The notes beneath the pieces were generated by a model. That model was given only the letters and a program-made list of their open reading frames with translations. It did not search any database and was not told the DNA's origin. A stretch of 64,000 nucleotides of DNA from Chitinophagaceae bacterium (GTDB lineage: Bacteria; Bacteroidota; Bacteroidia; Chitinophagales; Chitinophagaceae), in NCBI GenBank assembly GCA_965263285.1, contig CBDHHD010000016.1, positions 2,005,859 through 2,069,858 of the forward strand, given 5' to 3'. Of this stretch, positions 10,201-63,674 are shown piece by piece. Each line of letters begins with the position of its first letter. The first letter of the stretch is position 1. The position numbers and the translations under genes are program-made.

Positions 10201-13200
10201 AAGATAAAACGATACATCAGCTGTTTGAAGAGCAAGTAGCAAGAACACCGAATAATATAGCGGTGGTATTTGAGAAGAAGCAATTAACCTACCAAGAGTT
10301 GAATAGTATAGCTAATCAATTAGCAAATTATTTGCACAATAATTATCAAACTAAAGCAGACGATATTATTTGTTTGTTATTGGAGCGAAGTGAGTGGATG
10401 ATTATTTCTATTTTAGGAGTGCTTAAGAGTGGAGCTGCTTATTGTCCTATTTCTCCCGAATACCCTGAAGAGCGGATATTGTTTATTTTACAAGACACTC
10501 AACCTAAGTGCTTAATTACAAATTGCAAATTGAAAATTGAAAATGTTCAGTTTCCAATTGTTAATTTAACAGATGAACAATTTCTAAAAAAATTATATTC
10601 ATTAACCATTAACCATTTGCCATTAACTATTAGCTCTCGTTCTTTAGCGTATATTATCTATACCTCAGGAACAATAGGGAATCCTAAGGGGGTAATGGTG
10701 GAACATAGAAATGTAGTTAATCTTTTATATGCTACTGCGTATATTTTATATCCAATTAATCAAACATATCTAAGGGCAAGTGCGTTTACCCCTTATCAAT
10801 TTGATGTTTCTGTTAGTGAATTTTTAAGTCCTTTAGTACAAGGAGGCGAATTACATATTTTTAATGAATTAGCAATACAAAACATTTCATTTTTATCTCA
10901 ATATATTATAGAAAAATCTATTAATTATCTATATATCCCTCCTGTATTGCTATCACAACTTCCGCAACATATCTATCCAGAATTAAAACATATTATCTAT
11001 GCAGGAGAGCCATGTAATAGAAACATAGCTAATGATTGGTCGAAAAATTATTCGTTGTTTAATTATTATGGACCTACAGAGTCAACCATATATGCTTTGG
11101 GTAAACAAATTAATATAGATGAAGTAGAACAAATTGGGAAATCAATATACAATATAAAGATATATTTATTAAATACAAAACTTCAAGTTGCGCCAATAGG
11201 AAGCATTGTAGAATTATACATTGGAGGCGATGGTGTAGCAAGAGGATATTTGAATAGACCTGAATTAACTGCGGAACGGTTTATAAAAAACCCTTTTCAA
11301 ACAGAAGAAGATAAAAAGAAAAAACGAAATGACCGATTGTATAAGACAGGAGATTTAGTGCGAATGCTACCCGATGGCAATATTGAATATATAGGGAGGA
11401 ATGATTTTCAAGTGAAGATAAGAGGCTATCGAATTGAATTAGGGGAGATAGAGAATAGGATTCAAGGATTTCAGACTAGGATTGAAGGGTTAAAGGATGA
11501 ACAAGTTATTGAACAAGTCGTAGTATTGATTAATGAGAAAGGAGATAATAAATATTTAGTGGGGTATTTTGTGGCTAAGGAGCAAGTGGATGTAGAAGAA
11601 TTAAGAAGTTATCTCTCTAAGCAATTGCCCGAATATATGGTACCTACAGGATTGGTGCAAATAGAGCAGATGCCTTTAACGGTGAATGGCAAACTAGATA
11701 GAAAGGCATTATTAGCCATAGAATATAATCTTGCTGATAGCAATGAATATAAAGCTCCTACAAATGAATTAGAACAACAACTGCTATCTATTTGGGAGAA
11801 ATTATTAGGAAATAATAACATAGGAGTAGAAGATGATTTTTTTAGGGTAGGAGGAGATAGCATACGATCTATTCAATTGTCTAGCCAATTAAGAGCTCAT
11901 ATGGGAGTAGACATATCAGTGAAAGATATTTTTCAATATAGAACTATAGCGCAACTAAGTGAGCAGATATCTTTTAATTTTAGAGAGAAAGATGTTGTAA
12001 GAGAGACAGGTAGATTAGAGGGTGAGGTTGGACTTCTCCCTATTCAAAAATGGTTTTTTGAAAAAGATTATCCTAATCCTGATTATTTTAATCAAGCCTT
12101 TGAGATTAAGACAGAGCTTTTAAATAAGGAAGTTTTAATTCAAGCTATAGCTGACTTAGTGGATTATCACGATGCTTTTAGATTGTCGTATAAGAAAGAT
12201 GAGGCGGGGAATATTATTCAATACTATGATTCAACGAAACCGATGACTCCTGTTGTTTTTTATAATCTTACCAATTATAAAGATAAGGTATCTCAAAAGA
12301 GAATATGGTATAATCAAGGGCATCAGGAATTGGATAGATGGAAGGGTAACTTGTATAAGATATTCTATATGGAAGATGAAGAAGAAAAGAAAGCATATAT
12401 TGGTATGATTTTTCATCATTTAATAATAGATGGGGTGAGTTGGCGGATTTTATATGATGATTTATTTTTGTTATATCAGGGGAAGAGCTTGGGAGATAAG
12501 AAAACGAGCTATCGACAATGGGTGAATAGTTTACTGGAGTATAGCGCTCAGATAGATTCTTCTTGGGATGCCATATATAAGGAATGGGCAATACAATGGC
12601 AAGAACAAAATGAGGAATTTATAAGATGGTTAGACAATGAAGACAACTGTTTTGTAACAGTTAGCCTTAGTAAAGAAGAGACAGAGCAACTCATCTATCA
12701 AGGGAATAAGCCCTACCATACAGAAATTAATGATTTGTTATTGTATAGCTTAGCTGCGTCTTTTAGACAGGTATTTGGTAAAAGCGATTTGTTTATTACC
12801 TTAGAGAGTCATGGTCGCGAAGAATGGAAGGAAGAGATTAGAATAGGAAATACAATGGGATGGTTTACTACGATGCATCCTGTATGCTTATCTGTAGGAG
12901 AAGATATCTCTGAAAGTATTATAAGTATTAAAGAGCGACTTCATTCTATAGAAAGGAATGGTTTAGGATATGGTATTCGCTGGGGATATAGTCATATGCC
13001 TTGTGTTGTTTTTAATTACTTAGGGGTGATAGATGGGAAAGAGCGCCAACAATCATGGTCATTGAAAATAAAAGATACAGGCATTTGGGTAGATAGTAAA
13101 AACGTAACAATTCAAGAGAACAGATTGCAAATAGGATCGGTAGTAGAAAATGGTCAATTTAGATTTACGATGGCTGGTCGCTTAAGTAAAGAGAAGATGG

Positions 13201-16200
13201 GATTATGGGGACAGGCTTGGGAAATGGAATTGAAAAATATGATTCAACATTTACTTAAGAGAAATACTGTAATATATAGTCCGTCTGATTTTAAAGATAT
13301 TCGATCAGAAGTAGATGTAAGAAGATTAATAATAGAGCCTAATAAAGAAAAGCTCTACGATTGGTTTGAAATGACGGATTTGCAAAAAGCCTATTTATTA
13401 GGTCGTTTAGATAATTTTGAAATAGGAGGCATTAGTAATACGATCTATATAAGATTTTGTTTTTCGGAGATAGATATAAAAGAGTTGAATAGAGCCTTGA
13501 ATCAATTGATTGTATGGCAACCTGCATTGAGGACTATTTTTTCTATGGAGATATTAAAACAAAGGTATCTAAGAATGGAAGAGATAGATGTATATACTAT
13601 TGAAGAAATAAACCTTGAAACAGAACCATACACAGCAGTACATAATGAAGAAATAGCCAATCGTGTGTTTCGTAAGGACTATGATGCTGGTAAATTTCCT
13701 TTGTTTCATTTTGTAGCTGTAAGATATAATGATATAGTGGTTTTGCATCATAGTATGGATTTGATTATTTTAGATGCACAAAGCAGGCAATCGTTTTGGA
13801 CAATATTGATTCAGTTGTATAAGAATAAGGACTATCAACCTGCATTTAGTGCTATATCGTTTAAGGATTATCAAGATATTGTATCTCAGTTGCGGTATTC
13901 TTCATGGTATGAGAGGGATAAAAGGTATTGGGAAGAAAAGCTAAGCAACATGCCGGGTAAACCACCTTTATTAGGCTTAGAGGATACTTCCTGGATTAAG
14001 AAAGCACATTTTTCTGAGCATACGCTTTTTGTAGACAAAAGTACCTGGATGTCATTTTGTAAAAAGATAGAAAGTTATAGATTGTCCCCTGCAGGTGTTA
14101 TTCTTGCTTTGTTTGGTAAAGTTATTGGCTACTATAGTGGAGTGGCTGAGTTTTTAATAACGATAACATTGTTTAATAGATATCATGTGCATAAAGATGT
14201 GAATCAGCTGTGGGGAGATTTTACCAATACAGATTTTTTTCATTTTTTAGATGTAGGGGGATTGTTTCCTACAATAGAAAGAACAAGTAGGAGATTATTA
14301 GACGATATAGAGCATCAATTGTATGGGGGGCAAAATGTTCAGAGAGACTGGATAAGAGCCCATGCTACAGATATACATAAGATTGTGTCTCCTATTGTTT
14401 TTACGGGAGTGTTTAATACTATAGGCAGGAACGATAATATAGTAGATAAGGAGAAGTATTTTCCTAGTGAGTATATAGAAAAGCGCTATAGTATGGGTCA
14501 AACCTCTCAAGCATGGATTGACTTGCAAGCTATTGGTACTGAAGAAGGTTTTTTAAGTAAATGGTTATTTGTTTCGGAATTGTTTAGCAAGGAGCAAATA
14601 GGACAAATGAATGGTCAAATGATTGCATGGATTGAGTGGTTGAGTAAAAATGATTGGAAAGAAAAATGTGTTATATCACCATTGAGTGCTTTTGATAGGA
14701 ATTGCATATTTGAATACGAAGAGAGAGGAAGGGTGTTAGCTCCTAAGATAGAACGAAGTTGGCTACAGGAATATGAAGAAAAGGTGATACAAAATCTATC
14801 TTTGAGAGATAGTGTTTCTGTTATAGATAGCGAACAAAATAGGATGTATACACATAAGGAGATATGGGATTTATCTAAGAAAATAGCATCGATACTTGTA
14901 AGTGAAGATAGAACAACTGTTGCTATTCTTTCCGAGAAAGGAATGTTGCAAGTAGTGAGTGCTATAGGTATTATGCAATCGGGTAAAGCTTATATTCCTT
15001 TGAATATCCATTGGTCTGTGAGCAGGATACTTGAGATAATGGAGGAGAGCGGCACGAAGGTGTTATTGATTTCTAAAAAGGAGTATGAGCATAAGATACA
15101 ATTGCAAGGATCAAATATAAGGCTATTGATTATTGAGGAGTTGTTATTAAAAGAGCAGGAGGGAGATATTTCTTTGCCAGCTGTATTGCTTTCAGATATA
15201 GCTTATATTATCTATACGTCAGGTAGTACGGGCAAGCCTAAGGGAGTGGCGATTAGCCATGAGAATATGATAAATACCCTTATAGCAGTGAATAATAGAT
15301 ATAAAGTTACAGAAAAGGATAGTGTATTGGCATTGTCGGAATTGAGTTTTGATTTATCTGTTTATGATATTTTTGGTTTGTTATTAGTGGGAGGGGGAAT
15401 TATTTTTGTGAATGATGAAGAGAGACAAGATCCTCGGCATTGGTTAGCGCTCATTGAAAAGCATAAAATAACTTTATGGAATACAGTGCCTCAATTAGCC
15501 GAGTTATTGGTAGATGAGGCAAGGGCGAGAGAAATGAGATTGGATAGTATAAGACTATATCTGTTAAGTGGCGATTGGTTGCCTTTGCAATTACCTGATA
15601 AGATAAAACGGCAATCTAAAGATACACAAGTAATAAGTTTAGGAGGAGCAACGGAAGGGAGTATTTGGTCAATATGGTATGAGATTAAGAATATAAATCC
15701 AGATTGGAAAAGTATTCCTTATGGTTATCCCATGCCTAATCAGCAAATCTATATTTTAAATCACGAATTGATTCATTCACCTGTTGGGGTTGAGGGAGAT
15801 ATTTATATAGGAGGCAAGGGAGTGGCGCAAGGATATTGGAATAATGAGGAGGAAACAGACAAACAATTTAAAGACCATCCCGAATTAGGGAAGATATATA
15901 AAACAGGAGATAGGGGTATTTTGCATGCAGAGGGATGGGTAGAGTTTAGAGGCAGAAAGGATTTTCAAGTGAAGATAAGAGGGTACAGAGTGGAATTGGA
16001 GGAGATTGAAAATAAATTAAATAAATTAGAGGGAGTTAAACAATCGGCAGTGCAGTTGTTTAAAAAGAATAATAGTGAAGTGTTGGTAGGCTTTGTGGTT
16101 AGAGAGCAATTAATAACTAAAGGAGCAGATGAAAACTTTGATAAGGAAGTCTTTAAGTTAGAACAAAGAGGAATAAGAAAGGGTTTAACAGATACCATAA

Positions 16201-19200
16201 TCTTTAAAGACAATGATATTGCCGAACAGGAATATAGATTAACGAAGAGCTATAGGAATTTTGGAGATAGAGTTGTAGATACTTCATTGATAGATACTAT
16301 TATTAGAGAAGCCAAACAGATTAAAGTAAAAACAAAAAATGTAGGAGATTCTTTGCTAACGAAAGACAAGATAGCAAGGGTTTTAACGAGATTACAGGGC
16401 AAGTCCTTATCAGACAAGATACTGCCAAAATATCTATATCCGTCTGGAGGTAGTGCATATCCAATAGAATGTTATGTAAGGGTTTCGGAATTAGGAATAA
16501 AAGGGATAGAGGGAGGTGTGTATTACTACCATCCTCTTAATAATGCACTTCAAAGAGTAGAGGATCATAGCAATAATAATCAAGATAGTATTGAGTTGAT
16601 AGTGAATTGGTCGGCTATCAAGCCTTTATATGGTGATTTTGCGGATAAATTAGTATGGATAGAATTAGGACATATTTTGGAGTTGTTGTCTACCGAGTTA
16701 AATAGATTGGGTATTGCCTTTGATATTCAAATTAAGCAAGAAAACAGGGATGAATCTAAAATGGTTTTAGCGGAGATAGTTTTAGGTGTTGATGGTAATC
16801 AAATAGAGCAATTGACAAGTGAATTGACCGCGTACTATGTGAGCAAGCGAGGGAATATATATGAGGGTTTAATAGATTTAGATAAGTATAGTGTATTTGA
16901 TAGAGCAATAGAACAAGCCAAGATATTAGAGAATGGCAAGGGTATGATTGTTGTAGAATGTGATTCTCGTAGAGACAAGGCATGCCTTGTCTCTCAATGG
17001 ATAGGTTCGGGTATAATGATTGAGAGGATAAAACAGCAATTATTGCAATATAATATAGGCTGTTGTCCTTTAGGCAGTGAGTTTGGAGAGAATAGATTGT
17101 ATAGTATGGTAATAGGCTATATTGCAAATGAGGAGAAGACGAAGGGAGAAAGCAAAGTGGTAGTGGAGAAATTAAGTAAGGTGATAAATGATAGTGTAGG
17201 ATTACCAGATTATATGTCATTGCAGGAGATAGTGTTTTTAGATAGTATGCCCTTGACGGCAAATGGCAAGTTAGATAAGTCTCGTTTGCCTGAACCTGAA
17301 ATAGAATGGCAATCGTATATAGCCCCCGTTACTAAAGAGGAGCAAGAGATGGTGGAAATATGGAGCGAGATATTGAATATAGATAAAGGTAAGATAGGTA
17401 TTGAGGATAGTTTTTTTAATTTAGGTGGTCATAGCATTACAGCGATACGGTTGATTAGCAAGATAAATAGTCGCTTTAATTTTGGGTTATCTTTTAAGGA
17501 TTTATTTGAATATCCTACCATTAGAGGCCTGATAAAAAATAGTATAACATTAAACCAAAGAGAGCAAGAAGGGGATTATATACCGTATCAATTAATAGAT
17601 AGTAGTGTTGTTATTTCTAAAGAATATTATGAGGATTGTTACCCAGCGGGGATGTTACAGTTAGGCATGTTTTTTGAACAGGAGAAATTAGGACATGGTA
17701 CTTATCTTGCATTTCAGATACAATATTTTTCGGGAAAATGTAATAGAGAAAAATTAGAGAGATGTCTTCAGACCATTATTAATAGACATGATATTTTAAG
17801 AACGGGGTATAGGATGTTAGAAGATGGCAATATCTATGTCATGGTGCAAAAGCGAGTGGAGGTAAAGGGTAAGTTGTTTTTTGTTACCGATAGTATTGAA
17901 GAGGTTAGAAAGAAAGAGATAGCATTAGCATTTAATAGAGAGATAGCTGGTTTATATAGATTCTATATTATTGAACATGCAGAAGTTTTTGTGTTATTTT
18001 TTAGTTTTCACCATGCTATTTTAGATGGGTATAGTTTAAATTTATTTATAAGGGAATTAGTTGATCTGTATCAGCATGATAATGATAAGCTATATGAAGA
18101 AGAGCAATCAAAACTATTATATGGGGAATTTATAAGAAATGAGCTATCGGCATTAAAGAATGAAGATACAAGATTGTTTTGGCAGGAATATTTAGCGGAA
18201 AGTATATTGTTGACTCCTCAATGGAATTTTAGTAAAAGCAATGGAATAAGTGTAGTAGCAGAACGACAACAGATAGAAGGATTACGCTTAGGACAGATAG
18301 AAGATATAGCGAGTAAGTATAGCTGTACAGTTGAAGAGTTATTATTATTGTCTTATATGACTGTGTTGTCGTTATTTTTTAATGAGCGAGATATTACAAT
18401 AGGGTTGGAGAAACATAATCGTATAGAGAAAGAGGGAGGGGATAGGCAATTAGGATTATTTGTTACGATGTTACCTTTCAGGTATGAGTTAAGAGATAAG
18501 GAAGCATTAGGTACAGCATTAAGCAGATTAAGAGATAGTGTAAAAAAGATAGTGAATCATAAGCAATATCCTTATAATGAAATCAAGCAACAATTAGGAG
18601 GCAGAGATTTGTTTGATATAGCGTATAGTTATAATGACTTTAGCCATTTTGTAGGGAATGAAAAGAGAACTCATATAAATGAGTTTTTAAATGAGGAGCT
18701 TAGCAACATAACAAGTATTCTTTTTATATGTAAAGTATATAAGTATAGTGGTGGATATGGGTTTGTTTTTAGTGGACATAGTAACAATATTGATCAAGCA
18801 TATTTATCTTATTTTGTAAGATACTATAATAGTGTATTAGATCAATTATGCAAAGAAGAAAGGGTGGTTTTCAAATTGATGGATGAAGACTATCAGTATT
18901 TAGTGTATGATTACAATAAAACAGAAAAAGAATATCCTAAAGATAAAACCATACATCAGCTATTTGAAGAGCAAGTAGAAAGAACGCCGAATAATATAGC
19001 GGTGGTATTTGAGGAGAAGCAATTAACCTACCAAGAGTTGAATGACAAAGCTAATCAATTGGCAAATTATTTGCATCATAATTATCAAACTAAAGCAGAC
19101 GATATTATTTGTTTGTTATTAGAACGCAGCGAATGGATGATTATTGCCATCTTAGGAGTGCTTAAGAGTGGCTCTGCTTATTGTCCTATCTCTCCCGAAT

Positions 19201-22200
19201 ATCCTAATGAGAGGGTATTATTTATTTTACGAGATACTCAACCCAAGTGTTTAATTACAAATTACAAATTGAAAATTGAAAATGTTCAGTTTGTAATTGT
19301 TAATTTAACAGATGAACAATTTCTAAAAGAATTATATTCATTTACCATTCACCATTTACCATTAATCATTCACTCTCATGCTTTAGCATATATTATCTAT
19401 ACTTCAGGAACAACGGGGAATCCTAAGGGGGTAATGGTAGATCATAGCAATGTAGTGTCTTTAGTAAAGGGAGTAGATTATGTTAAACTTGACAGCTATT
19501 CTTTTGCTATACAATTATCAGACATTTGTTTTGATGCTTTTACTTTTGAGTTGTGGGGCATGTTATTGAATGGAGGTAAGATATATGTGCCTAAAGATAT
19601 AAAAAACATGCTGGAAGTACAGATATTTAAAAGTTATTGTGTAGAACATAATATTAATACACTATGGTTAACAAAAACATTATTTGAAGCTTTGTATTTA
19701 CAAGACAATACACTTTTTAAACATCTAACTTATTTATTGGTGGGAGGAGAGGCTCTTAATTCTATATTGGTTCAACAATTGATGTGTGAGAATGGTCCGC
19801 AATTTTTTATAAATGGATATGGTCCTACCGAAAACACAACTTTTAGTTTGACTTATACATGTAATAAAAATAATAAAAATCAGAATATATCTATTGGCAA
19901 GCCATTAAATAACAGAACTGCTTTTGTAGTTTCAAATGATAATACACTATTACCCATAGGATCTATGGGCGAATTATATCTTGGTGGAGATGGTTTATCG
20001 AGAGGCTATTTGAATAGACCTGAATTGACTGCAGAACGATTTATTAAGAATCCTTTTCAAACTGAAGAAGAAAAAAAGCAAAATAGAAATGGGCGACTAT
20101 ATAAAACAGGAGACATAGTGCGCATGCTACCCGATGGTAATATTGAATACATAGGCAGAAATGATTTTCAAGTGAAGATACGAGGCTATAGAATTGAATT
20201 AGGGGAGATAGAGAATAGGATTCAAGGATTTCAGACTAGGATTGAAGGATTAAAGGATGAACAAGTGATTGAACAAGTCGTGGTATTGGTTAATGAGAAA
20301 GCGGATAATAAATATTTAGTGGGATATTTTGTGGCTAAGGAGCAAGTGGATGTAGAAGAATTAAGAAGCTATTTATCTAAGCAATTACCTGAGTATATGG
20401 TGCCTACAGGACTAGTGCAAATAGAACAAATGCCTTTAACAGTGAATGGGAAATTAGATAGAAGGACATTATTAAATATTGAATATAAAATAAGTGATGA
20501 GTCTATAGAATTGCCAAAGAACAATACGGAAGAACGATTGCTAAAGATATGGTCAAACTTATTGAAAATATCTGAATTGGAGTTAAGTGTAACGCAATCT
20601 TTTTTTAGATTAGGTGGGAATAGTTTGCTGTCTATTCGATTGGTTGGTCAATTGAATAGACAGCTGCTAGTGCAACTAAGTGTAAAAGATATTTTTGCTT
20701 ATCCTACTATTAGAGAGATATCGCATATCATTGAACAAAAAGATACGGGATTTGTATATCAAGATTATATGTTGACTGATATAAAAAAGGAGGATTATAG
20801 TTTGTTTCCGTTAAATAATGTGCAACAAGCTTATTATATAGGGAGAATAGATTTGTTTGAGATAGGCAATATTTCTACAGGGGGCTATAGTGAGTTTGTT
20901 GTGGATGATTTATCTGTTGAAAATTTAGAAAAAGCTTTAAATCGTTTAGTGCTAAGACATGCAGGTTTGCGAACTGTTTTTACTGATCAAGGTCAACAGA
21001 TTTTACCAGCTGATAATTGTCATTATTCTATTCCTGTTAATAAAATAACGACAGAAGAAGCCTTGTTAGATATTAGGAACAGGCTATTAAATATGAAGGT
21101 AGATGTAGCAAGGTTTCCTATAATCGTTATAGAAGTGTCAGAGTATAAAGGTTCGTATGTTATTCATTTTATGTTTGATGCTATTATTATGGATAATAAT
21201 AGTATGCGAATATTTTTTACTGAGTTGGTAAAGATTTATAATAATCTGGATATTGTGTTGCCCACGCTGCATATTACATATCATGAATATATTTTAGCAC
21301 TACAACGCATTCGTGATAGTAAATTGTTTGACAAAGCAAAAACATATTGGGAGACTAAGTTAGAGGATTATGATTTTAGCTGTAATCTTCCGATAGTGAT
21401 AGAACCATCAATGGTTAAGCAGTCTACTACTAAAAGGGGTTTAAGGATAATAGAGAAAGAGACGTATGATATATTACAGGAGAAATTAGCTAAAATACAA
21501 CTGAGTCCTACTTCGCTGTTATTGTCATTATATGGTAAGGTATTATGTCGTTGGTCAGGTCAAGATAAATTTAGTATTAATTTGACTTTGTTTAATCGCT
21601 TGCCGTTACATAAAGAGGTGAATGATATATTGGGTGATTTTACAAATTTAGAGTTATATAATTATGATGATGTAAAAAGTAGAGATATTGTAGAGCATTA
21701 TTTAAAAGGAGTACAAAATGTTCTTTGGGATGATATAGAGAATAATCTATTTGATGGGATTGACTTTCAAAGATTGATAAGAGAGCGAAAACAATGGTCT
21801 ATTTCCAAGGCTATAGCTCCGATTGTATTAACGAGTGTATTAGGATTTAAAGAAAAAAAAGAAGAAGGGGATGTTATTAATTTGTTTGGGAGACAACATT
21901 ATTCTATTTCAAGAACATCACAGGTTTGGATAGACAATGCGGTATATGAAGATTATAATGGCAATTTGATTCTTCGTTGGGATTTTGTAGAGCAGTTATT
22001 TTTACCTGAAGTAATAGAGGGGATGTTGGATGAGTATGCTTATTTGATAAGGAAGATAGCAGCGATGGATATACAGAGGGATAGATTGGAATGTTATAGA
22101 TTGCCTGCTACTTATCAACATATTATTGAAAAATATAATGCTACTGCAGAAGAATATGATGTGAAGACAATTATAGACTTCTATGATAACTGTGTTATAC

Positions 22201-25200
22201 AAGATGCATGCAAGTGTAATGCTATTGCTGTGGTGGAAGGAGGGAATAATAAGCAAGCATATAAACATAGAGAAGTGGCTATAGGATCTAAAAATATAGC
22301 TACTCATCTATATAAGTATTATAAAGAAGAACAAACTGTTGCTATTTTATCTGAGAAAGGCTATAATCAAGTAGTGAGTAGTCTTGGTATTATGCAATCG
22401 GGTAAAGCTTATATTCCTTTGAATATCCATTGGTCTGCGAGTAGGATACTTGAGATAATGGAGGAGAGCGGCACGAAGGTGTTATTGATTTCTAAAAAGG
22501 AATATGAGCATAAGAGACAATTGCAAGCATCAAATATAAGGCTATTGATTATTGAGGAATTATTAACAAAAGAGTGGGAGGGAGATATTTCTTTGCCAGC
22601 TGTATTACTTTCAGATATTGCTTATATTATCTATACATCAGGTAGTACGGGTAAACCTAAGGGAGTGGCGATTAGCCATGAGAATATGATGAATACCATT
22701 ATAGCAGTGAATAATAGATATAAAGTTACAGAAAAGGATAGTGTATTGGCATTGTCGGAATTGAGTTTTGATTTATCTGTTTATGATATTTTTGGTTTGT
22801 TATTAGTGGGAGGGGGAATTGTTTTTGTGAATGATGAAGAGAGACAAGATACTCAGCATTGGTTATCGCTCATTGAAAAGCATAAAATAACTTTATGGAA
22901 TACAGTGCCTCAATTAGCCGAGTTATTGGTAGATGAGGCAAGGACGAGAGCAATGAGATTGGATAGTATAAGACTATATCTGTTAAGTGGCGATTGGTTG
23001 CCTTTGCAATTACCTGATAAGATAAAACGGCAATCTAAAGATACACAAGTAATAAGTTTAGGAGGAGCAACGGAAGGGAGTGTTTGGTCAATATGGTATG
23101 AGATTAAGAATATAAATCCAGATTGGAAAAGTATTCCTTATGGTTATCCCATGCCTAATCAGCAAATCTATATTTTAAATCACGAATTGATTCATTCACC
23201 TATTGGGGTTGAGGGAGATATTTATATAGGAGGCAAGGGAGTGGCGCAAGGATATTGGAATAATGAGGAGCAAACAGACAAACAATTTAAAGAACATCCC
23301 GAATTAGGGAAGATATATAAAACAGGAGATAGGGGTATTTTGCATGCAGAGGGATGGGTAGAGTTTAGAGGCAGAAAGGATTTTCAAGTGAAGATAAGAG
23401 GGTACAGAGTGGAATTGGAGGAGATTGAAAATAAATTAAATAAATTAGAGGGAGTTAAACAATCGGCAGTGCAGTTGTTTAAAAAGAATAATAGTGAAGT
23501 GTTGGTAGGCTTTGTGGTTAGAGAGCAATTAATAACTAAAGGAGCAGATGAAACCTTTGATAAGGAAGTCTTTAAGTTAGAACAAAGAGGAATAAGAAAG
23601 GGTTTAACAGATACTATAACCTTTAATGATAATGGTATTGATGAGGAGTTATATAGATTAACGAAGAGCTATAGGAATTTTGGAGATAGAGTTGTAGATA
23701 CTTCATTGATAGATACTATTATTAGAGAAGCCAAACAGATTAAAGTAAAAACAAAAAATGTAGGAGATTCTTTGCTAACGAAAGACAAGATAGCAAGGGT
23801 TTTAACGAGATTACAGGGCAAGTCCTTATCAGACAAGATACTGCCAAAATATCTATATCCGTCTGGAGGTAGTGCATATCCAATAGAATGTTATGTAAGG
23901 GTTTCGGAATTAGGAATAAAAGGGATAGAGGGAGGTGTGTATTACTACCATCCTCTTAATAATGCACTTCAAAGAGTAGAGGATCATAGCAATAATAATC
24001 AAGATAGTATTGAGTTGATAGTGAATTGGTCGGCTATCAAGCCTTTATATGGTGATTTTGCGGATAAATTAGTATGGATAGAATTAGGACATATTTTGGA
24101 GTTGTTGTCTACCGAGTTAAATAGATTGGGTATTGCCTTTGATATTCAAATTAAGCAAGAAAACAGGGATGAATCTAAAATGGTTTTAGCTGAGATAGTT
24201 TTAGGCGTTGATGGTAATCAAATAGAGCAATTGACAAGTGAATTGACCGCCTACTATGTGAGCAAGCGAGGGAATATATATGAGGGTTTAATAGATTTAG
24301 ATAAGTATAGTGTATTTGAAAGAGCAATAGAACAAGCCAAGATATTAGAGAATGGCAAGGGTATGATTGTTGTAGAATGTGATTCTCGTAGAGACAAGGC
24401 ATGCCTTGTCTCTCAATGGATAGGTTCGGGTATAATGATTGAGAGGGTAAAACAGCAATTATTGCAATATAATATAGGCGGTTGTCCTTTAGGCAGTGAG
24501 TTTGGAGAGAATGAATTGTATAGTATGGTAATAGGATATATTGCAAACGAGGAGAAGACGAAGGGAGAAAGCAAAGTGGCAGTGGATAAATTAAGTAAGG
24601 TGATAAATGATAATTTAGGATTACCAGATTATATGTCATTGCAGGAGATAGTGTTTTTAGATAGTATGCCCTTGACGGCAAATGGCAAGTTAGATAAGTC
24701 TCGTTTGCCTGAACCTGAAATAGAATGGCAATCGTATATAGCCCCCGTTACTAAAGAGGAGCAAGAGATGGTGGAAATATGGAGCGAGATATTGAATATA
24801 GATAAAGGTAAGATAGGTATTGAGGATAGTTTTTTTAATTTAGGTGGTCATAGCATTACAGCGATACGGCTGATTAGCAAGATAAATAGTCGCTTTAATT
24901 TTGGGTTATCTTTTAAGGATTTATTTGAATATCCTACCATTAGAGGCCTGATAAAAAATAGTATAACATTAAACCAAAGAGAGCAAGAAGGGGATTATAT
25001 ACCGTATCAATTAATAGATAGTAGTGTTGTTATTTCTAAAGAATATTATGAGGATTGTTACCCAGCGGGGATGTTACAGTTAGGCATGTTTTTTGAACAG
25101 GAGAAATTAGGACATGGTACTTATCTTGCATTTCAGATACAATATTTTTCTGGAAAATGTAATAGAGAAAAATTAGAGAGATGTCTTCAGACCATTATTA

Positions 25201-31200: not shown

Positions 31201-34200
31201 CTAAGTGTTTAATTACAAATTGCAAATTGAAAATTGAAAATGTTCAGTTTCCAATTGTTAATGTAACAGATGAACAATTTCTAAAAGAATTATATTCATT
31301 TACCATTAACCATTTACCATTAACCATTAGTTCTCGTTCTTTAGCATATATTATCTATACTTCTGGTACAACGGGGAATCCTAAGGGAGTGATGATTGAA
31401 CATAGTTCAGTAATAAATCTTCAAATGGCACAGAGTAGAATATGGTTAGATTCTATAAAAGAAAATAAGACTTTTAGATTGTTATTATATGCCAACTATT
31501 CTTTTGACGCATTTGTTTTTGAATTATTTGCATCTATTTGTAATGGGCATACTTCTTATCTTATATCTTCAGATATACAACAAGACTTTTATTTATTAGC
31601 AAATTATATTCAAACTAATAATATAGTAATAGCCACTTTACCTCCAGCTATTTTACAAAAAGATGTTTTTTTGTCTCTTGATAAAATCATATTAGCAGGA
31701 GAATCACCCAATATAGATATAATAAAAAGATATTATGAACAAGAGATAGAAGTATTTAATGCGTATGGACCCACTGAAATTACAGTGTGCGCTACCATGC
31801 ATCATTATAGCATGGGTGATAACAATAATAATATAGGGAAGCCTATAGATAATAAGTCTATATATGTATTAAATAATAATCTACAGTTGTTACCCATAGG
31901 ATCTATTGGCGAATTATACATTGGAGGCGATGGAGTGGCAAGAGGATATTTGAATAGAGCTGAATTAACTGTAGAACGGTTTATAAAAAATCCTTTTCAA
32001 ACAGAAGAAGAAAAAAAGAAAAATAGAAATAGTAGGCTGTATAAAACAGGCGATTTAGTGCGAATGCTACCCGATGGCAATATTGAATATATAGGTAGAA
32101 ATGATTTTCAAGTGAAGATAAGGGGCTATAGAATTGAATTAGGGGAGATAGAGATTAGGATTCAAGGATTAAAGGATGAACAAGTTATTGAACAAGCTGT
32201 AGTATTGGTTAATGAGAAAGCGGATAATAAATATTTAGTGGTATATTTTGTGGCTAAGGAGCAAGTGGATGTAGAAGAATTAAGAAGTTATTTATCTAAG
32301 CAATTGCCTGAATATATGGTACCTACAGTATTGGTACAAATAGAACAAATGCCTTTAACGGTGAATGGTAAGTTAGATAGAAAAGCATTGTTAAATATTG
32401 AATATAAAATAATTGATGAGTCTATAGAACTGCCAAAGAACAATACGGAAGAACGATTGCTAAAGATATGGTCAAACTTATTGAAAATCTCAGAATCTGA
32501 GATAAGTGTAACGCAATCTTTTTTTAGATTAGGTGGGAATAGTTTGCTGTCTATTCGATTGGTTGGTCAATTGAATAGAGAGCTGCTAGTGCAACTAAGT
32601 GTAAAAGATATTTTTGCTTATCCTACTATTAGAGAGCTAGCGCATATCATTGAACAAAAAGATACGGGATTTGTATATCAAGATTATATGTTGACTGATA
32701 TAAAAAAGGAGGATTATAGTTTGTTTCTGTTAAATAATGTGCAACAAGCTTATTATATGGGGAGAATAGATTTGTTTGAGATAGGCAATATTTCTACAGG
32801 GGGCTATAGTGAGTTTGTTGTGGATGATTTATCCGTTGAAAATTTAGAAAAAGCTTTAAATCGTTTAGTGCTAAGACATGCGGGTTTGCGAACTGTTTTT
32901 ACTGATCAAGGTCAACAGATTTTACCAGCTGATAATTGTCATTATTCTATTCCTGTTAATAAAATAACGACAGAAGAAGCCTTGTTAGATATTAGGAACA
33001 GGCTATTAAATATGAAGGTAGATGTAGCAAGGTTTCCTATAATCGTTATAGAAGTGTCAGAGTATAAAGGTTCGTATGTTATTCATTTTATGTCTGATGC
33101 TATTATTATGGATGATAATAGTATGCGAATATTTTTTACTGAGTTGGTAAAGATTTATAATAATCTGGATATTGTATTGCCCACGCTGCATATTACATAT
33201 CATGAATATATTTTAGCGCTACAACGCATTCGTGATAGTAAATTGTTTGACAAAGCAAAAACATATTGGGAGACTAAGTTAGAGGATTATGATTTTAGCT
33301 GTAATCTTCCGATAGTAATAGAACCATCAATGGTTAAGCAGTCTACTACTAAAAGGGGTTTAAGGATAATAGAGAAAGAGACGTATGATATATTACAGGA
33401 GAAATTAGCTAAAATACAACTGAGTCCTACTTCGCTGTTATTGTCATTATATGGTAAGGTATTATGTCGTTGGTCAGGTCAAGATAAATTTAGTATTAAT
33501 TTGACTTTGTTTAATCGCTTGCCGTTACATAAAGAGGTGAATGATATATTGGGTGATTTTACAAATTTAGAGTTGTATAATTATGATGATGTAAAAAGTA
33601 GAGATATTGTAGAGCATTATTTAAAAGGAGTACAAAATGTTCTTTGGGATGATATAGAGAATAATCTATTTGATGGGATTGACTTTCAAAGATTGATAAG
33701 AGAGCGAAAACAATGGTCTATTTCCAAGGCTATAGCTCCGATTGTATTAACGAGTGTATTAGGATTTAAAGAAAAAAAAGAAGAAGGGGATGTTATTAAT
33801 TTGTTTGGGCGACAACATTATTCTATTTCAAGAACATCACAGGTTTGGATAGACAATGCGGTATATGAAGATGATAATGGCAATTTGATTCTTCGTTGGG
33901 ATTTTGTAGAGCAGTTATTTTTACCTGAAGTAATAGAGGGGATGTTGGATGAGTATGCTTATTTGATAAGGAAGATAGCAGCGATGGATATACAGAGGGA
34001 TAGATTAGAATTTTATAGATTGCCTGCTACTTATCAACATATTATTGAAAAATATAATGCTACTGCAGAAGAATATGATGTGAAGACAATTATAGACTTC
34101 TATGATAACTGTGTTATACAAGATGCATACAAGTGTAATGCTATTGCTGTGGTGGAAGGAGGGAATAATAAGCAAGCATATAAACATAGAGAAGTGGCTA

Positions 34201-45437: not shown

Positions 45438-46770
45438 ATGCATCTTGATTTAGATAATAGCCTTCTACTATCACCTTATCAAGAGTTGTTTTTTTATGAG
45501 TGGGAATTAGATCCATTAGGCTATAATGTATTCTTTTTACAGGAAATCCATGGTTTTTTAGATATAGAAAGATTATCCTTGGCGTGGAAAAGAATAGTGA
45601 GGGATTTTTTATATTATCACCTATATGTTTCAAAAGAACAAGGTAAAATTTTATTAGCTTCATTTGATAATCGATCTAGTTCTATAGAGTATATTGATCA
45701 AGCTTTGTCATTTGATGAAATAAAGAGTTTGATTAGAAAGCCATTTGATTTAACGAATAAAAGTAGCTTAACAAGACTGTGTGTTATTAAAAAAGGAATA
45801 GATAAATATTGTATTTTGTTTGTGTGTCATCATCTTATCAGCGGTGGGATGATTATATATGAGTTTGTTCGGTTACTTTCAAATTATTATAATGATATTC
45901 ATTTTAGATATTCGATTTCAATTAAAACTCAACAACAAGAAAATCTTCTTTTTGTAAGGAAAGTTAAAGGGATGTTAGAAACACATCGTGAGATTTTAAT
46001 GAATTTTTGGAGAGAGAAATTAGAGGGAGGAGAGAGTATATCTTTAGACTTTTTAAAGCTACCTCAAGGGGCATATAAATATAATAAAGAAAATAAAATT
46101 TTTAGATACTATTCTGTTCCTCTTGAATATGTTATGGGAGTGGCAAGATTAGCGAAACAGCGTGTTGTAACAGACTATATTATTTATATAACGACTTTGT
46201 CTGTTCTTTTTTATAAACATTTATATGAAGCTCCCTCTAAATTATTGTTTTCTTTGCCCTACCTTTTAAATAGTAAGGCGTATATACAAGGAGTTAATAA
46301 TATTTTTATTCCTTTTTGTATTACTCGTACAAAGAGTTTTTTATGCTTGCTGGAGGATACAAAAGGATTTTTTAAGGAAATTAAAAAGACATTAGTAATA
46401 GGAGAAGAAGTTATTCCTGCCTATACCCCTACTTATTGGATGATAGATGCAGGGGATATTCATAGATTAGATAGGCCAGTAGCGCTAGTGCAACAAGACA
46501 ATGTGAGTAAATTATTGTTTTCTTTTGATGGCACAAGTAAAGGAGAGTGGCAATATGATACGTTTGAGAGCACTATGTTTTCAGATAGGCTAACAATAAA
46601 TATGCAAAGAGTAGGTGAACAAGGTATTCGTTTTTTTGTGGAATGCAAAGAAACTGGAATAAATGAGCAGTTAATGGATGTTTTTTTTGAAAGATATTTT
46701 AAATTGTTAGGGGATGTTTTGTTAGATGCAACTAAAACTATTGGCGAATATAATATACTTACAGATAAGG
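45438..46770 (+). other. N-terminal condensation domain of gene 2 (starter position, degenerate active-site motif)
   Basis: About 445 aa preceding the first A domain. LSPYQELFFYEW at the N-terminus and HHLISGG instead of HHxxxDG. No close sequence relative among the other C domains in the window. Confidence 0.7.
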
Positions 46771-48628: not shown

Positions 48629-51600
48629 AGATTATATGTTGACTGATATAAAAAAGGAGGATTATAGTTTGTTTCCGTTAAATAATGTGCAACAAGCTTA
48701 TTATATGGGGAGAATAGATTTGTTTGAGATAGGCAATATTTCTACAGGGGGCTATAGTGAGTTTGTTGTGGATGATTTATCCGTTGAAAATTTAGAAAAA
48801 GCTTTAAATCGTTTAGTGCTAAGACATGCAGGTTTGCGAACTGTTTTTACTGATCAAGGTCAACAGATTTTACCAGCTGATAATTGTCATTATTCTATTC
48901 CTGTTAATAAAATAACGACAGAAGAAGCCTTGTTAGATATTAGGAACAGGCTATTAAATATGAAGGTAGATGTAGCAAGGTTTCCTATAATCGTTATAGA
49001 AGTGTCAGAGTATAAAGGTTCGTATGTTATTCATTTTATGTCTGATGCTATTATTATGGATGATAATAGTATGCGAATATTTTTTACTGAGTTGGTAAAG
49101 ATTTATAATAATCTGGATATTGTATTGCCCACGCTGCATATTACATATCATGAATATATTTTAGCGCTACAACGCATTCGTGATAGTAAATTGTTTGACA
49201 AAGCAAAAACATATTGGGAGACTAAGTTAGAGGATTATGATTTTAGCTGTAATCTTCCGATAGTGATAGAACCATCAATGGTTAAGCAGTCTACTACTAA
49301 AAGGGGTTTAAGGATAATAGAGAAAGAGACGTATGATATATTACAGGAGAAATTAGCTAAAATACAACTGAGTCCTACTTCGCTGTTATTGTCATTATAT
49401 GGTAAGGTATTATGTCGTTGGTCAGGTCAAGATAAATTTAGTATTAATTTGACTTTGTTTAATCGCTTGCCGTTACATAAAGAGGTGAATGATATATTGG
49501 GTGATTTTACAAATTTAGAGTTGTATAATTATGATGATGTAAAAAGTAGAGATATTGTAGAGCATTATTTAAAAGGAGTACAAAATGTTCTTTGGGATGA
49601 TATAGAGAATAATCTATTTGATGGGATTGACTTTCAAAGATTGATAAGAGAGCGAAAACAATGGTCTATTTCCAAGGCTATAGCTCCGATTGTATTAACG
49701 AGTGTATTAGGATTTAAAGAAAAAAAAGAAGAAGGGGATGTTGTTAATTTATTTGGGCGACAACATTATTCTATTTCAAGAACATCACAGGTTTGGATAG
49801 ACAATGCGGTATATGAAGATTATAATGGCAATTTGATTCTTCGTTGGGATTTTGTAGAGCAGTTATTTTTACCTGAAGTAATAGAGGGGATGTTGGATGA
49901 GTATGCTTATTTGATAAGGAAGATAGCAGCGATGGATATACAGAGGGATAGATTGGAATTTTATAGATTGCCTGCCACTTATCAACATATTATTGAAAAA
50001 TATAATGCTACTGCAGAAGAATATGATGTGAAGACAATTATAGACTTCTATGACAACTGTGTTATACAAGATGCATGCAAGTGTAATGCTATTGCTGTGG
50101 TGGAAGGAGGGAATAATAAGCAAGCATATAAACATAGAGAAGTGGCTATAGGATTTAAAAATATAGCTACTCATCTATATAAGTATTATAAAGAAGAACA
50201 AACTGTTGCTATTTTATCTGAGAAAGGCTACAATCAAGTAGTGAGTAGTCTTGGTATTATGCAATCGGGTCAAGCTTATATTCCTTTGAATATTCATTGG
50301 TCTGCGAGCAGGATACTTGAGATAATGGAGGAGAGTGGCACGAAGGTGTTATTGATTTCTAAAAAGGAGTATGAGCATAAGAGACAATTACAAGTATCAA
50401 ATATAAGGCTATTGATTATTGAGGAATTATTAACAAAAGAGCGGGAGAAAAATATTCATTTGCCGATTGTATTGCTTTCAGATATAGCTTATATTATCTA
50501 TACGTCAGGTAGTACGGGTAAACCTAAGGGAGTGGCGATTAGCCATGAGAATATGATGAATACCATTATAGCAGTGAATAATAGATATAAAGTTACAGAA
50601 AAGGATAGTGTATTGGCATTGTCTGAATTGAGTTTTGATTTATCTGTTTATGATATTTTTGGTTTGTTATTAGTGGGAGGGGGAATTGTTTTTGTGAATG
50701 ATGAAGAGAGACAAGATCCTCATCATTGGTTATCGCTCATTGAAAAGCATAAAATTACTTTATGGAATACAGTGCCTCAATTAGCCGATTTGTTGGTAGA
50801 TGAGGCAAGGACGAGAGAAATGAGATTGGATAGTATAAGACTATATCTGTTAAGTGGCGATTGGTTGCCTTTGCAATTACCTGACAAGATAAAACGGCAA
50901 TCTAAAGATACACAAGTAATAAGTTTAGGAGGAGCAACGGAAGGCAGTATTTGGTCAATATGGTATGAGATTAAGAATATAAATCCAGATTGGAAAAGTA
51001 TTCCTTATGGTTATCCCATGCCTAATCAGCAAATCTATATTTTAAATCACGAATTGATTCATTCACCTGTTGGGGTTGAGGGAGATATTTATATAGGAGG
51101 CAAGGGAGTGGCGCAAGGATATTGGAATAATGAGGAGCAAACAGACAAACAATTTAAAGAACATCCCGAATTAGGGAGGATATATAAAACAGGAGATAGG
51201 GGTATTTTGCATGCAGAGGGATGGGTAGAGTTTAGAGGCAGAAAGGATTTTCAAGTGAAGATAAGGGGGTACAGAGTAGAATTAGAGGAGATTGAAAATA
51301 AATTAAATAAATTAGAGGGAGTTAAACAATCGGCAGTGCAGTTGTTTAAAAAGAATAATAGTGAAGTGTTGGTAGGCTTTGTGGTTAGAGAGCAACTAAT
51401 AACTAAAGGAGTAGATGAAAACTTTGATAAGGAAGTCTTTAAGTTAGAACAAAGAGGAATAAGAAAGGATTTAACAGATACTATAACCTTTAATGATAAT
51501 GGTATTGATGAGGAGTTATATAGATTAACTAAGAGCTATAGGAATTTTGGAGATAGATTTGTAGATGCTTCATTGATAGATACTATTATTAGAGAAGCCA

Positions 51601-63485: not shown

Positions 63486-63674
63486 AGTGCAAAAATAAAG
63501 GCTCAAAATGAGAAAAACAATATTTTTTAAAATATTAACAAAAGATTAACTTATTTTAGGGACTACAAATTCGGTTTTTCGCACTTTTTTGTTTTTCAAA
63601 ATATTCAAAATCAATACTTTATAAAATTGACACCCCCTAAAAAACAGCCGTTTTTACTGCTTTTTTCCTACTTT

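What the first reader, a model, noticed from the sequence alone, without database searches (positions are those of the whole stretch)
12010..14680. Epimerisation domain feeding directly into a divergent Cy domain (D-donor Cy subtype?)
Module 3 ends in an E domain with all seven E motifs, and the next domain is a Cy, not a C. This E domain (12010-13270) and Cy domain (13276-14680) are the only copies of their types not belonging to the near-identical repeat families. Cy1 reads FEMTDLQKAYLLGR / HHSMDLIILDAQS / QAWIDLQ. The other three Cy domains all follow a T domain directly and read FPLNNVQQAYY[IM]GR / FM[FS]DAIIMD[ND]NS / QVWIDN. Within one protein, Cy sequence class therefore tracks donor stereochemistry, analogous to the DCL/LCL split of ordinary C domains. 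E-to-Cy junctions are uncommon but, as far as I recall, not unprecedented (D-aminoacyl-thiazole units exist in some NRPs).
Basis: partly seen in the sequence, partly recalled or inferred. Interest (0 to 1): 0.6.

Follow-up and report, generated by a model that had tools for sequence, protein, structure and literature searches.

The report
Epimerase-fed thiazole-forming domain subtype
In a giant peptide-making enzyme, a domain that flips an amino acid to its mirror form hands straight on to a thiazole ring-forming domain; that domain belongs to a distinct, widespread subfamily almost always found behind such flippers, an arrangement already present in the althiomycin antibiotic pathway.

Summary
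Module 3 ends in an epimerisation domain with intact motifs (E3, nt 12009-13322). It abuts a heterocyclisation domain (Cy4, nt 13323-14702) that keeps DxxxxD and the Thr/Asp/Gln catalytic residues. Cy4 feeds a Cys-type A domain with an embedded oxidase.

E3 is 40% identical to the other E domains, and Cy4 is 31-32% identical to the other three Cy domains, which are 99% alike.

The block is unique only inside the window. The genome holds at least 10 copies at 96-98% identity, and in every one E abuts Cy.

In a tree of 389 Cy domains from 253 proteins, Cy4 falls in a fully supported clade of 66. Sixty of these directly follow an E domain, against 10 of 323 outside the clade. The clade includes proteins matching althiomycin synthetase Alb5/AlmB, so the E-to-Cy junction already exists in a genetically characterised pathway.

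The E partners are not one lineage (AU p=0.022). In this genome the same donor A-domain cassettes feed both Cy types. Cy type therefore tracks E presence, not the donor side chain.

Against a strict D-donor reading, at least four other Cy lineages follow E without the clade's 29-position signature. No stereochemistry was measured.

Verdict: a real member of a known arrangement. The "D-donor Cy" subtype is plausible but unproven, and I found no description of it in the searchable papers.

The parts
10233..11786 (+). A domain of module 3 (donor residue; pocket code about DVSVIAYIYK, specificity unknown)
   Evidence: phmmer self-search. Motif-anchored code extraction. The same code also sits directly upstream of T->Cy6-type domains elsewhere in the genome.
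11748..11972 (+). T domain of module 3 with the GGDSI serine motif (nt 11850-11864)
   Evidence: Pfam PF00550. It is 71% identical to the other T domains that precede E. Motif position.
11948..14904 (+). Block without a near-identical copy inside the window: end of T3, E3, Cy4 and the first ~35 aa of A4
   Evidence: Window self-blastn. Repeats end at nt 11947 and resume at nt 14905 at 96-98% nt identity. Genome-wide this block has at least 10 copies.
12009..13322 (+). Epimerisation domain E3 with all seven E motifs, including HHLIIDG (12414-12434) and ESHGRE (12804-12821)
   Evidence: Pfam Condensation 1.4e-43. TIGR01720 scores 56.6 bits, below its 74.2-bit cutoff. Competitive HMM assignment to E. 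Motifs.
13323..14702 (+). Heterocyclisation domain Cy4. Motifs: FEMTDLQKAYLLGR (13365), DLIILD (13758), TITLFNR (14160), SPIVFT (14388), QAWIDLQ (14508)
   Evidence: Full-length alignment to BmdB Cy2 structure 5T3E (4.2e-51), and to EpoB and HMWP2 Cy structures. Member of the E-associated clade, with 26 of 29 signature positions.
14799..17354 (+). Cys-type A domain (code DLYQLSLIWK) with a ~300-aa insert carrying a SagB-like dehydrogenase (Ox) segment
   Evidence: Split AMP-binding hit. TIGR03605 SagB-family hit at 4.7e-12, below its cutoff. Code. It is 91-92% identical to the other three A-Ox domains.
17316..17543 (+). T domain of module 4 (acceptor carrier)
   Evidence: Pfam PF00550. It is 95-100% identical to the other post-Ox T domains.
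20766..22103 (+). Cy6-type heterocyclisation domain, directly after a T domain (comparison copy)
   Evidence: It lies in a small T-preceded sister group of the E-associated clade.
32685..34016 (+). Second Cy6-type domain, directly after a T domain
48633..49964 (+). Third Cy6-type domain, in the second NRPS gene, directly after a T domain

Best explanation
**What it is.** Nt 11748-17543 encode a working T-E-Cy-A(Cys, Ox)-T stretch of a 13-module, roughly 17,358-aa non-ribosomal peptide synthetase.

**Proposed mechanism.**
1. The module-3 residue is loaded on T3.
2. E3 equilibrates its alpha-carbon.
3. Cy4 takes the D-epimer as donor, condenses it with Cys-S-T4 and cyclodehydrates the product to a thiazoline.
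4. The oxidase embedded in A4 aromatises the ring.

The peptide would then carry a D-Xaa-thiazole unit.

**Why Cy4 is divergent.** It is not a decayed copy. It belongs to an old, widespread Cy subfamily that is almost always fused behind an E domain. That subfamily includes the module-4 Cy of proteins matching the althiomycin synthetases Alb5/AlmB. It most likely plays the role for Cy domains that DCL plays for ordinary C domains.

**Shown here:** the domain order, intact catalytic motifs, clade membership, and the association of the clade with an upstream E domain.

**Inferred:** that E3 is active, and that the clade selects D-configured donors.
For: **Architecture and motifs.**

**Catalytic residues of Cy4.** It keeps D146/D151 (DxxxxD), the Thr in VFT, and the Asp and Gln in QAWIDLQ. 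By alignment these match HMWP2-Cy2 T1830, D1862 and Q1864, which are named in PMC9547227.

**Acceptor specificity.** The acceptor A code is Cys-like. All clade members with a readable code also have Cys-like acceptor codes.

**Phylogeny.**
- The clade of 66 has support 1.0 and a stem length of 0.48. Sixty members follow E, against 10 of 323 outside.
- IQ-TREE PMSF gives SH-aLRT 100 for the clade.
- The Cy-only search shows the same split.

**Signature.**
- About 40 positions are conserved in the clade and rare outside it.
- Examples are N39, R155, T280, S356, A397 and L401.
- By sequence alignment these lie next to the residues that PMC9547227 places in the active-site tunnel: S1520, N1751, T1830 and D1862.

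**E partners.** They are scattered among ordinary E domains, with 13 label changes on the FastTree tree. The AU test rejects their monophyly at p=0.022. So one E-Cy block was not simply inherited intact.

**Within this genome.**
- All 10 Cy4-type domains follow an E3-type E.
- All 14 Cy6-type domains follow T.
- All 30 E1-type E domains precede an ordinary C domain.
- The same donor A codes (DVSVIAYIYK, DAFAIAAVCK) feed both Cy types.
- Both Cy types occur with and without the oxidase.

**Characterised relatives.** Clade members P0038 (Serratia marcescens, 5348 aa) and P0004 (Myxococcus xanthus, 5427 aa) match Alb5 (5347 aa) and AlmB (5428 aa) of PMC3445576 in organism and length.
Against: - No stereochemistry or enzyme activity has been measured for any clade member that I could find. 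I could not retrieve the configuration of althiomycin.
- Ten E-preceded Cy domains in at least four other lineages lack the signature, with a mean of 2 of 29 positions. The signature is therefore not required for working behind an E domain.
- Three clade members follow T directly and keep the signature.
- Within this genome the strict E3-Cy4 pairing could be mechanical. Neither half has a similar enough paralogue (40% and 31% identity) for homologous recombination to separate them.
- A test for residues shared by the clade and by DCL domains gave no net signal, about 5 columns for and 5 against.
- The placing of signature positions near the tunnel rests on sequence alignment, not on coordinates.
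Confidence: 0.6

Rival explanations
1. Historical lineage without stereoselectivity. An E-Cy fusion arose once and its Cy lineage spread by module transfer. Cy domains in general do not discriminate donor chirality, so the clade marks ancestry and not function.
For: - Ordinary-type Cy domains follow E in at least four independent lineages without any of the clade signature.
- Three clade members work behind T.
- No net sharing of residues with DCL domains.
- The coupling within this genome can be explained by the absence of recombination partners.
Against: - The E partners of the clade are not monophyletic: 13 changes and AU p=0.022. The Cy lineage has therefore kept or regained an upstream E through several partner changes.
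- 60 of the 63 members with a readable upstream domain still follow E, across Proteobacteria, Myxococcota, Actinomycetota and Bacteroidota.
- Signature positions lie next to catalytic and tunnel residues.
Confidence: 0.25
2. Interface adaptation. The clade's distinctive residues adapt the Cy domain to pack against, or take the carrier protein from, an adjacent E domain. They do not read the chirality of the donor.
For: - The E-Cy junction has almost no linker by HMM envelopes.
- Many signature positions, such as W195, R213, L415 and N430, are not next to known catalytic residues.
Against: - The E partners are diverse, so a specific E-Cy surface would have to be re-formed repeatedly.
- Several signature positions flank the catalytic Thr and Asp and the tunnel Asn equivalent.
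Confidence: 0.1
3. One partner is inactive. E3 would be a structural relic, or Cy4 would only condense without forming a ring, so no D-Xaa-thiazole is made.
For: - E3 sits on a very long branch, 1.2-1.7 changes per site.
- Its TIGR01720 score is below the curated cutoff.
Against: - All seven E motifs are present, including HHxxxDG and the Glu-containing ESHGRE.
- Cy4 keeps DxxxxD, the Thr/Asp dyad and the helper Gln.
- At least 10 copies are kept at 96-98% identity in intact ORFs.
Confidence: 0.05

Closest known systems
Althiomycin synthetase Alb5 (Serratia marcescens Db10) / AlmB (Myxococcus xanthus DK897), modules 3-4
   Same: My domain annotation of the matching proteins P0038 and P0004 gives C-A(Ser-like)-T-E-Cy-A(Cys)-T. 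An E domain directly abuts a Cy domain. Their Cy falls in the same fully supported clade as Cy4, at up to 43% identity. PMC3445576 describes six modules (Gly, Cys, Ser, Cys, Gly, malonate) and lists Cy, Ox and E domains.
   Different: - Althiomycin's second Cys module has no oxidase and yields a thiazoline, and it is followed by another E.
- The window's module has an embedded oxidase, so a thiazole is predicted, and it has no downstream E.
- The donor residue, the host phylum (Bacteroidota) and the 13-module context all differ.
- The identity of P0038 and P0004 with Alb5 and AlmB rests on organism and length, not on accession numbers.
DCL condensation domains (Rausch et al. 2007, PMC1894796)
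   Same: They form a phylogenetically distinct subtype of a C-superfamily domain that sits directly after E domains, and they are taken to select the D-epimer from the equilibrated donor.
   Different: - DCL selectivity has been shown biochemically. For this Cy clade it is only inferred.
- The Cy split is leakier. Ten E-preceded Cy domains lie outside the clade and three T-preceded ones lie inside.
- There is no net sharing of subtype-specific residues with DCL.
Structurally solved Cy domains: BmdB Cy2 (5T3E), EpoB Cy (5T7Z), HMWP2 Cy2 (7JTJ)
   Same: Full-length alignment with E-values from 4e-51 to 2e-31. DxxxxD, the gating Phe, the Thr/Asp dyad and, as in EpoB and HMWP2, the helper Gln are all conserved.
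   Different: - In the tree, Cy4 is separated from the bulk of T-preceded Cy domains by a fully supported branch. The solved domains were not placed in that tree.
- By alignment, the solved domains carry the non-clade residues at the signature positions checked, for example Asn where Cy4 has T280, Val where it has A397 and Met where it has S356.
Thiamyxin assembly line (PMC10100342)
   Same: A D-residue made by an E-containing module precedes a thiazoline-forming HC (Cy) module.
   Different: In thiamyxin a C-PCP 'transfer' module with a DCL-type C domain is proposed to sit between the E module and the HC module. Here E feeds Cy directly.

Membership tests
NRPS heterocyclisation (Cy) domain | Condensation-superfamily domain with DxxxxD in place of HHxxxDG | tested here: met
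   Pfam PF00668 at 2.8e-26. DLIILD at aa 4586-4591.
NRPS heterocyclisation (Cy) domain | Cyclodehydration residues: Thr/Asp dyad with or without the helper Gln (HMWP2-Cy2 T1830, D1862, Q1864) | tested here: met
   The alignment to 7JTJ and 5T3E puts SPIVFT and QAWIDLQ on these residues. The columns are more than 85% conserved in all 389 Cy domains.
NRPS heterocyclisation (Cy) domain | Acceptor A domain specific for Cys, Ser or Thr | tested here: met
   Motif-anchored pocket code DLYQLSLIWK, close to the Cys code. The positional guide sequence was recalled from memory, so position 278 may be off by one.
NRPS epimerisation (E) domain | HHxxxDG plus E-specific motifs (EGHGRE-type Glu motif, GWFT, GxGYG, FNYLG) | tested here: met
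   HHLIIDG, ESHGRE, MGWFTT, GLGYG and FNYLG are all present. It scores best with the E model among the C-superfamily models.
NRPS epimerisation (E) domain | Match to TIGR01720 (E-associated C-terminal region) above the curated cutoff | tested here: inconclusive
   56.6 bits at E 2.6e-15, against a cutoff of 74.2.
NRPS epimerisation (E) domain | Catalytic epimerisation of the carrier-bound donor | not testable with these tools
   Needs an enzyme assay or product analysis.
E-associated Cy clade (althiomycin Alb5/AlmB module-4 type) | Falls inside the clade in a Cy-domain phylogeny | tested here: met
   FastTree support 1.0 with 389 domains. IQ-TREE PMSF SH-aLRT 100 with 87 rows.
E-associated Cy clade (althiomycin Alb5/AlmB module-4 type) | Directly preceded by an E domain | tested here: met
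   E3 ends at aa 4440 and Cy4 starts at aa 4441. This also holds for all 10 genomic copies.
E-associated Cy clade (althiomycin Alb5/AlmB module-4 type) | Clade signature residues (29 chosen columns) | tested here: met
   Cy4 matches 26 of 29. Clade members have a mean of 27.2 and a minimum of 21. T-preceded domains outside the clade have a mean of 1.6 and a maximum of 9.
E-associated Cy clade (althiomycin Alb5/AlmB module-4 type) | Selects a D-configured donor | not testable with these tools
Thiazole-forming Cy-A(Ox)-T module (epothilone/bleomycin type) | FMN-dependent oxidase domain associated with the Cys module | tested here: inconclusive
   A ~300-aa insert splits the A domain. TIGR03605 SagB-family hit at 4.7e-12 and 45.8 bits, below the 78.4-bit cutoff. 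Pfam Nitroreductase scores only E 0.28.

The most novel reading that the evidence does not exclude
Cy domains may split, like ordinary C domains, into donor-chirality subtypes. Under this reading there is a phylogenetically coherent 'D-donor Cy' subfamily, recognisable by about 29-40 signature positions, several of them next to the catalytic Thr/Asp and tunnel residues. A residue preceding a thiazoline or thiazole made by such a domain would be D-configured. Standard classifiers (antiSMASH, NaPDoS, CDD), as described in PMC10212144, treat Cyc as one subtype, and I found no paper that describes this split. If true, it would give a sequence rule for predicting stereochemistry next to thiazol(in)es and a compatibility rule for engineering E-Cy junctions.
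Probability: 0.35. Interest if true: 0.65.

Novelty: new member of a known kind. Interest (0 to 1): 0.5.

Why it matters
Stereocentres next to thiazolines are chemically labile and hard to assign, as noted for thiamyxin in PMC10100342. A sequence marker that tells whether the ring-forming domain expects a D-donor would help structure prediction from genomes. It would also tell engineers which Cy domains can be placed behind an E domain.

The host genome offers a natural experiment. The same donor cassettes are wired either as T->Cy6-type or as T-E->Cy4-type. Both Cy types are combined freely with oxidase-containing and oxidase-free Cys modules.

For the window itself the result is more modest. 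It is one more instance of the arrangement present in althiomycin synthetase.

Tried and rejected
- **Argyrin as a precedent for E->Cy.** Rejected. PMC8719831 states that the module incorporating that D-residue lacks an E domain and that the D-amino acid is probably loaded directly.
- **Co-inheritance of a single E-Cy didomain.** Tested with an E-domain tree. It is not supported: 13 label changes and AU p=0.022.
- **Convergence between the clade and DCL domains at homologous columns.**
  - About 5 columns fit and about 5 show the opposite pattern, so there is no net signal.
  - In the C4-motif region, the clade's Gln (Cy4 Q184) and the clade-consensus Tyr two columns later (Ile in Cy4) are shared with DCL.
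- **Convergence of out-of-clade E-preceded Cy domains on the clade signature.** None was found, with a mean of 2 of 29 positions.
- **Donor side chain as the driver of Cy type.** Rejected. Donor codes in the clade are diverse, including Ser-, Val-, Cys- and Phe-like codes. Two codes are shared between the two Cy types in this genome.
- **Literature searches for a described Cy subtype or an 'E-Cy' junction.** Nothing specific was found. The BmdB structure paper (PMC5224394) is not held. The absolute configuration of althiomycin was not retrievable.
- **Structural mapping of signature residues by coordinates.** Not done, because the structure tools return no coordinates. The mapping is by sequence alignment to 7JTJ and 5T3E only.
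- **One failed call.** One search failed on a wrong reference format and was repeated.

Full report
**1. What is in the window**

The + strand carries two NRPS genes. The first is nt 3-45362, 15,119 aa, and is open at the window's 5' end. The second is nt 45438-61307, 5,289 aa. An IS1634-family transposase lies on the - strand at nt 61524-63506.

Motif scans, Pfam/NCBIfam and phmmer self-searches give this order for gene 1 inside the window:

C-A-T-E | C-A-T-E | C-A-T-E | Cy-A(Ox)-T | C-A-T | Cy-A(Ox)-T | C-A-T-E | C-A-T | Cy-A(Ox)-T | C-A-T-E | C-A-T-TE

Gene 2 reads (partial C)-A-T | Cy-A(Ox)-T | C-A-T-E | C-A-T-TE. In the genome the first ORF runs 2,239 aa further upstream. That gives about 17,358 aa and 13 modules.

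**2. The observation**

- The third E domain (aa 4003-4440, nt 12009-13322) abuts a Cy domain (aa 4441-4900, nt 13323-14702).
- E3 carries all seven E motifs.
- Cy4 carries FEMTDLQKAYLLGR, DLIILD, TITLFNR, SPIVFT and QAWIDLQ.
- E3 is 40% identical to the other five E domains, which are 89-98% alike.
- Cy4 is 31-32% identical to the other three Cy domains, which are 99% alike and each follow a T domain.
- At the DNA level the segment without a close copy in the window is nt ~11948-14904. From nt 14905 the sequence is 96-98% identical to the other A-Ox modules.

**3. Are both domains likely to work?**

Cy4 aligns over its full length with solved Cy structures: BmdB Cy2 5T3E at 4.2e-51, EpoB 5T7Z, and HMWP2-Cy2 7JTJ.

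PMC9547227 names a Thr/Asp dyad (T1830, D1862), a helper Gln (Q1864), a gating Phe (F1755), and N1751 and T1753 in the tunnel. By the alignment, Cy4 has the Thr (VFT), the Asp and Gln (QAWIDLQ), the Phe, and T1753. At the N1751 position it has Thr.

The downstream A domain has a Cys-like pocket code, DLYQLSLIWK. It also has a ~300-aa insert with a weak SagB-type dehydrogenase match, consistent with an embedded oxidase. The predicted local product is a D-Xaa-thiazole. The D configuration is inferred from the E domain only.

**4. The block is not unique in the genome**

The assembly is 3.56 Mb in 16 contigs at about 31.6% GC. The window is C16:2005859-2069858.

tblastn finds at least 10 full E3-Cy4 blocks at 96-98% aa identity, always contiguous. 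It also finds 14 Cy6-type domains.

The partition is perfect:
- 10 of 10 Cy4-type domains follow an E3-type E.
- 14 of 14 Cy6-type domains follow T.
- 30 of 30 E1-type E domains that have a downstream neighbour precede an ordinary C domain.

The downstream partner is shuffled freely. Cy4-type has 6 copies with the oxidase and 3 without. Cy6-type has 8 with and 3 without.

The same donor cassettes occur before both types. DVSVIAYIYK and DAFAIAAVCK are each found as A-T-E3-Cy4-type and as A-T-Cy6-type. Within this genome, Cy type therefore follows the presence of E and not the donor side chain.

One caveat applies. E3 and Cy4 have no similar paralogue, so homologous recombination could not easily split them. 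The pairing in this genome may be partly mechanical.

**5. Relatives elsewhere**

A didomain query returned many large NRPSs that align over 97-100% of E3-Cy4 at 35-40% identity. A search with Cy4 alone against 1.84 billion representatives gave two classes of hits:
- 34-46% identity, aligned from residue 1.
- 25-32% identity, mostly in multi-Cy proteins.

I annotated domains in all 251 retrieved proteins plus the two window proteins, using competing HMMs checked against motifs. This gave 389 full Cy domains. Of these, 70 directly follow E and 242 follow T.

**6. Phylogeny**

- In a FastTree LG+G tree rooted on C and E domains, Cy4 lies in a clade of 66 with support 1.0 and a stem of 0.48. Sixty members follow E, three follow T and three are at protein N-termini.
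- Outside the clade, 10 of 323 follow E.
- IQ-TREE (LG+C20+F+G4, PMSF) on 87 rows recovers the clade with SH-aLRT 100. It places the window's Cy6-type in a small T-preceded sister group.
- Among the first 60 hits of the Cy-only search, those at 34% identity or more are preceded by E 19 times, by T twice, and are N-terminal three times. Of the 36 weaker hits, none is preceded by E.
- Named clade members come from Serratia, Myxococcus, Streptomyces, Saccharomonospora, Nocardiopsis, Pseudoduganella, Pseudoalteromonas, Zooshikella, Legionella/Coxiellaceae MAGs and Flavitalea.

**7. A characterised precedent**

P0038 is from Serratia marcescens, is 5,348 aa long, and represents a cluster of 1,090 member sequences. 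P0004 is from Myxococcus xanthus and is 5,427 aa long. They match Alb5 (5,347 aa) and AlmB (5,428 aa) of the althiomycin pathway in organism and length.

My annotation of both gives C-A(Ser-like)-T-E-Cy-A(Cys)-T-E-C-A-T-...-TE. This fits the published module order Gly, Cys, Ser, Cys, Gly, malonate and the domain list that includes E. The E-to-Cy junction therefore exists in a genetically proven pathway, and its Cy belongs to the same clade.

Argyrin is not a precedent, because its D-residue module has no E. In thiamyxin a DCL-PCP 'transfer' module is proposed between the E module and the HC module.

**8. Function or ancestry?**

For function:
- E domains upstream of clade Cy domains are scattered among ordinary E domains. 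There are 15 separate pure groups and 13 label changes.
- In an IQ-TREE analysis their monophyly is rejected (delta lnL 81.9, AU p=0.022). E3 itself sits nearest its own genome's E1-type on a long branch.
- The Cy clade has therefore stayed behind E through several partner changes.
- The clade has about 40 positions conserved inside it and rare outside.
- By alignment to 7JTJ, some of these lie next to residues that PMC9547227 places in the active site or tunnel:
  - N39 aligns with S1520.
  - T280 aligns with N1751.
  - S356 lies five residues before T1830.
  - A397 and L401 flank D1862.
  - R155 follows DxxxxDxxS.

Against function:
- The ten out-of-clade E-preceded Cy domains, in at least four lineages including a Brevibacillus NRPS, match only about 2 of 29 signature columns. 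That is no more than T-preceded domains match.
- The three T-preceded clade members keep 25-28 of 29.
- The clade shares no net excess of subtype-specific residues with DCL domains.

**9. Known or new?**

Reviews and large-scale classification papers treat Cyc as a single subtype. Searches for a donor-chirality split or for 'E-Cy' found nothing. Most subscription journals are not in the library, so this does not prove absence.

**10. Verdict**

The thing in the window is a new member of a known arrangement, the one in modules 3-4 of althiomycin synthetase.

The broader idea is a donor-chirality subtype of Cy domains. It is plausible, at roughly 0.6 for D-selection by the clade, and apparently undescribed. 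It rests on association only, and the exceptions show that the signature is not required for working behind an E domain.

Noticed in passing
window 3-45362, extending upstream to G000 C16:1999144: The first NRPS ORF is uninterrupted for about 17,358 aa and 13 modules, and it starts with a C domain whose His motif reads HHLISGG. That is roughly 2 MDa, which would place it among the largest bacterial proteins that I know of.
   Followed up: partly
whole genome G000 (16 contigs, 3.56 Mb): About 180,650 aa of NRPS ORFs, roughly 15% of the genome, lie in about 40 ORFs or fragments. They are built from a small set of near-identical domain blocks. Several contigs are almost entirely NRPS and end inside modules, so assembly of the repeats may be incomplete.
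   Followed up: partly
G000 C16:1934713-1938981: RpoB is 1,420 aa, against about 1,267 aa in its best relatives. It has Lys/Glu/Asn-rich insertions. In its conserved C-terminal part it is at most 77% identical to Chitinophagaceae and Chitinophagia MAG proteins. The host therefore looks like a divergent, AT-rich member of Bacteroidota with no close sequenced relative in the collection.
   Followed up: partly
window 45438-46850 (N-terminus of gene 2): Gene 2 starts with only pieces of a C domain. Pfam matches profile positions 5-223, and a separate short match covers the C-terminal end, before the first A domain. This may be a truncated or degenerate starter C domain.
   Followed up: no
window 16756-17262, 24175-24681, 36094-36600, 52042-52548 (- strand): Four identical-length 168-aa antisense ORFs lie inside the four oxidase-bearing A domains. 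They are most simply a by-product of the repeated block on a strongly strand-skewed sequence, not genes.
   Followed up: no
protein P0003 (Pseudoduganella chitinolytica, 6365 aa): Its architecture is A-T-Cy-A-T-E-Cy-A-T-E-Cy-A-T. It has two consecutive E-to-Cy junctions whose donor modules are themselves Cys/Cy modules. That implies epimerisation of thiazoline-bearing intermediates before the next clade-type Cy.
   Followed up: no
window 20766-22103, 32685-34016, 48633-49964: The three Cy6-type domains read QVWIDNA. Like BmdB Cy2, they lack the helper Gln two residues after the catalytic Asp, which Cy4 (QAWIDLQ), EpoB and HMWP2-Cy2 have.
   Followed up: partly
window 61524-63506 (- strand): An IS1634-family transposase (NCBIfam NF033559, 3e-68) lies directly downstream of the second NRPS gene.
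   Followed up: no
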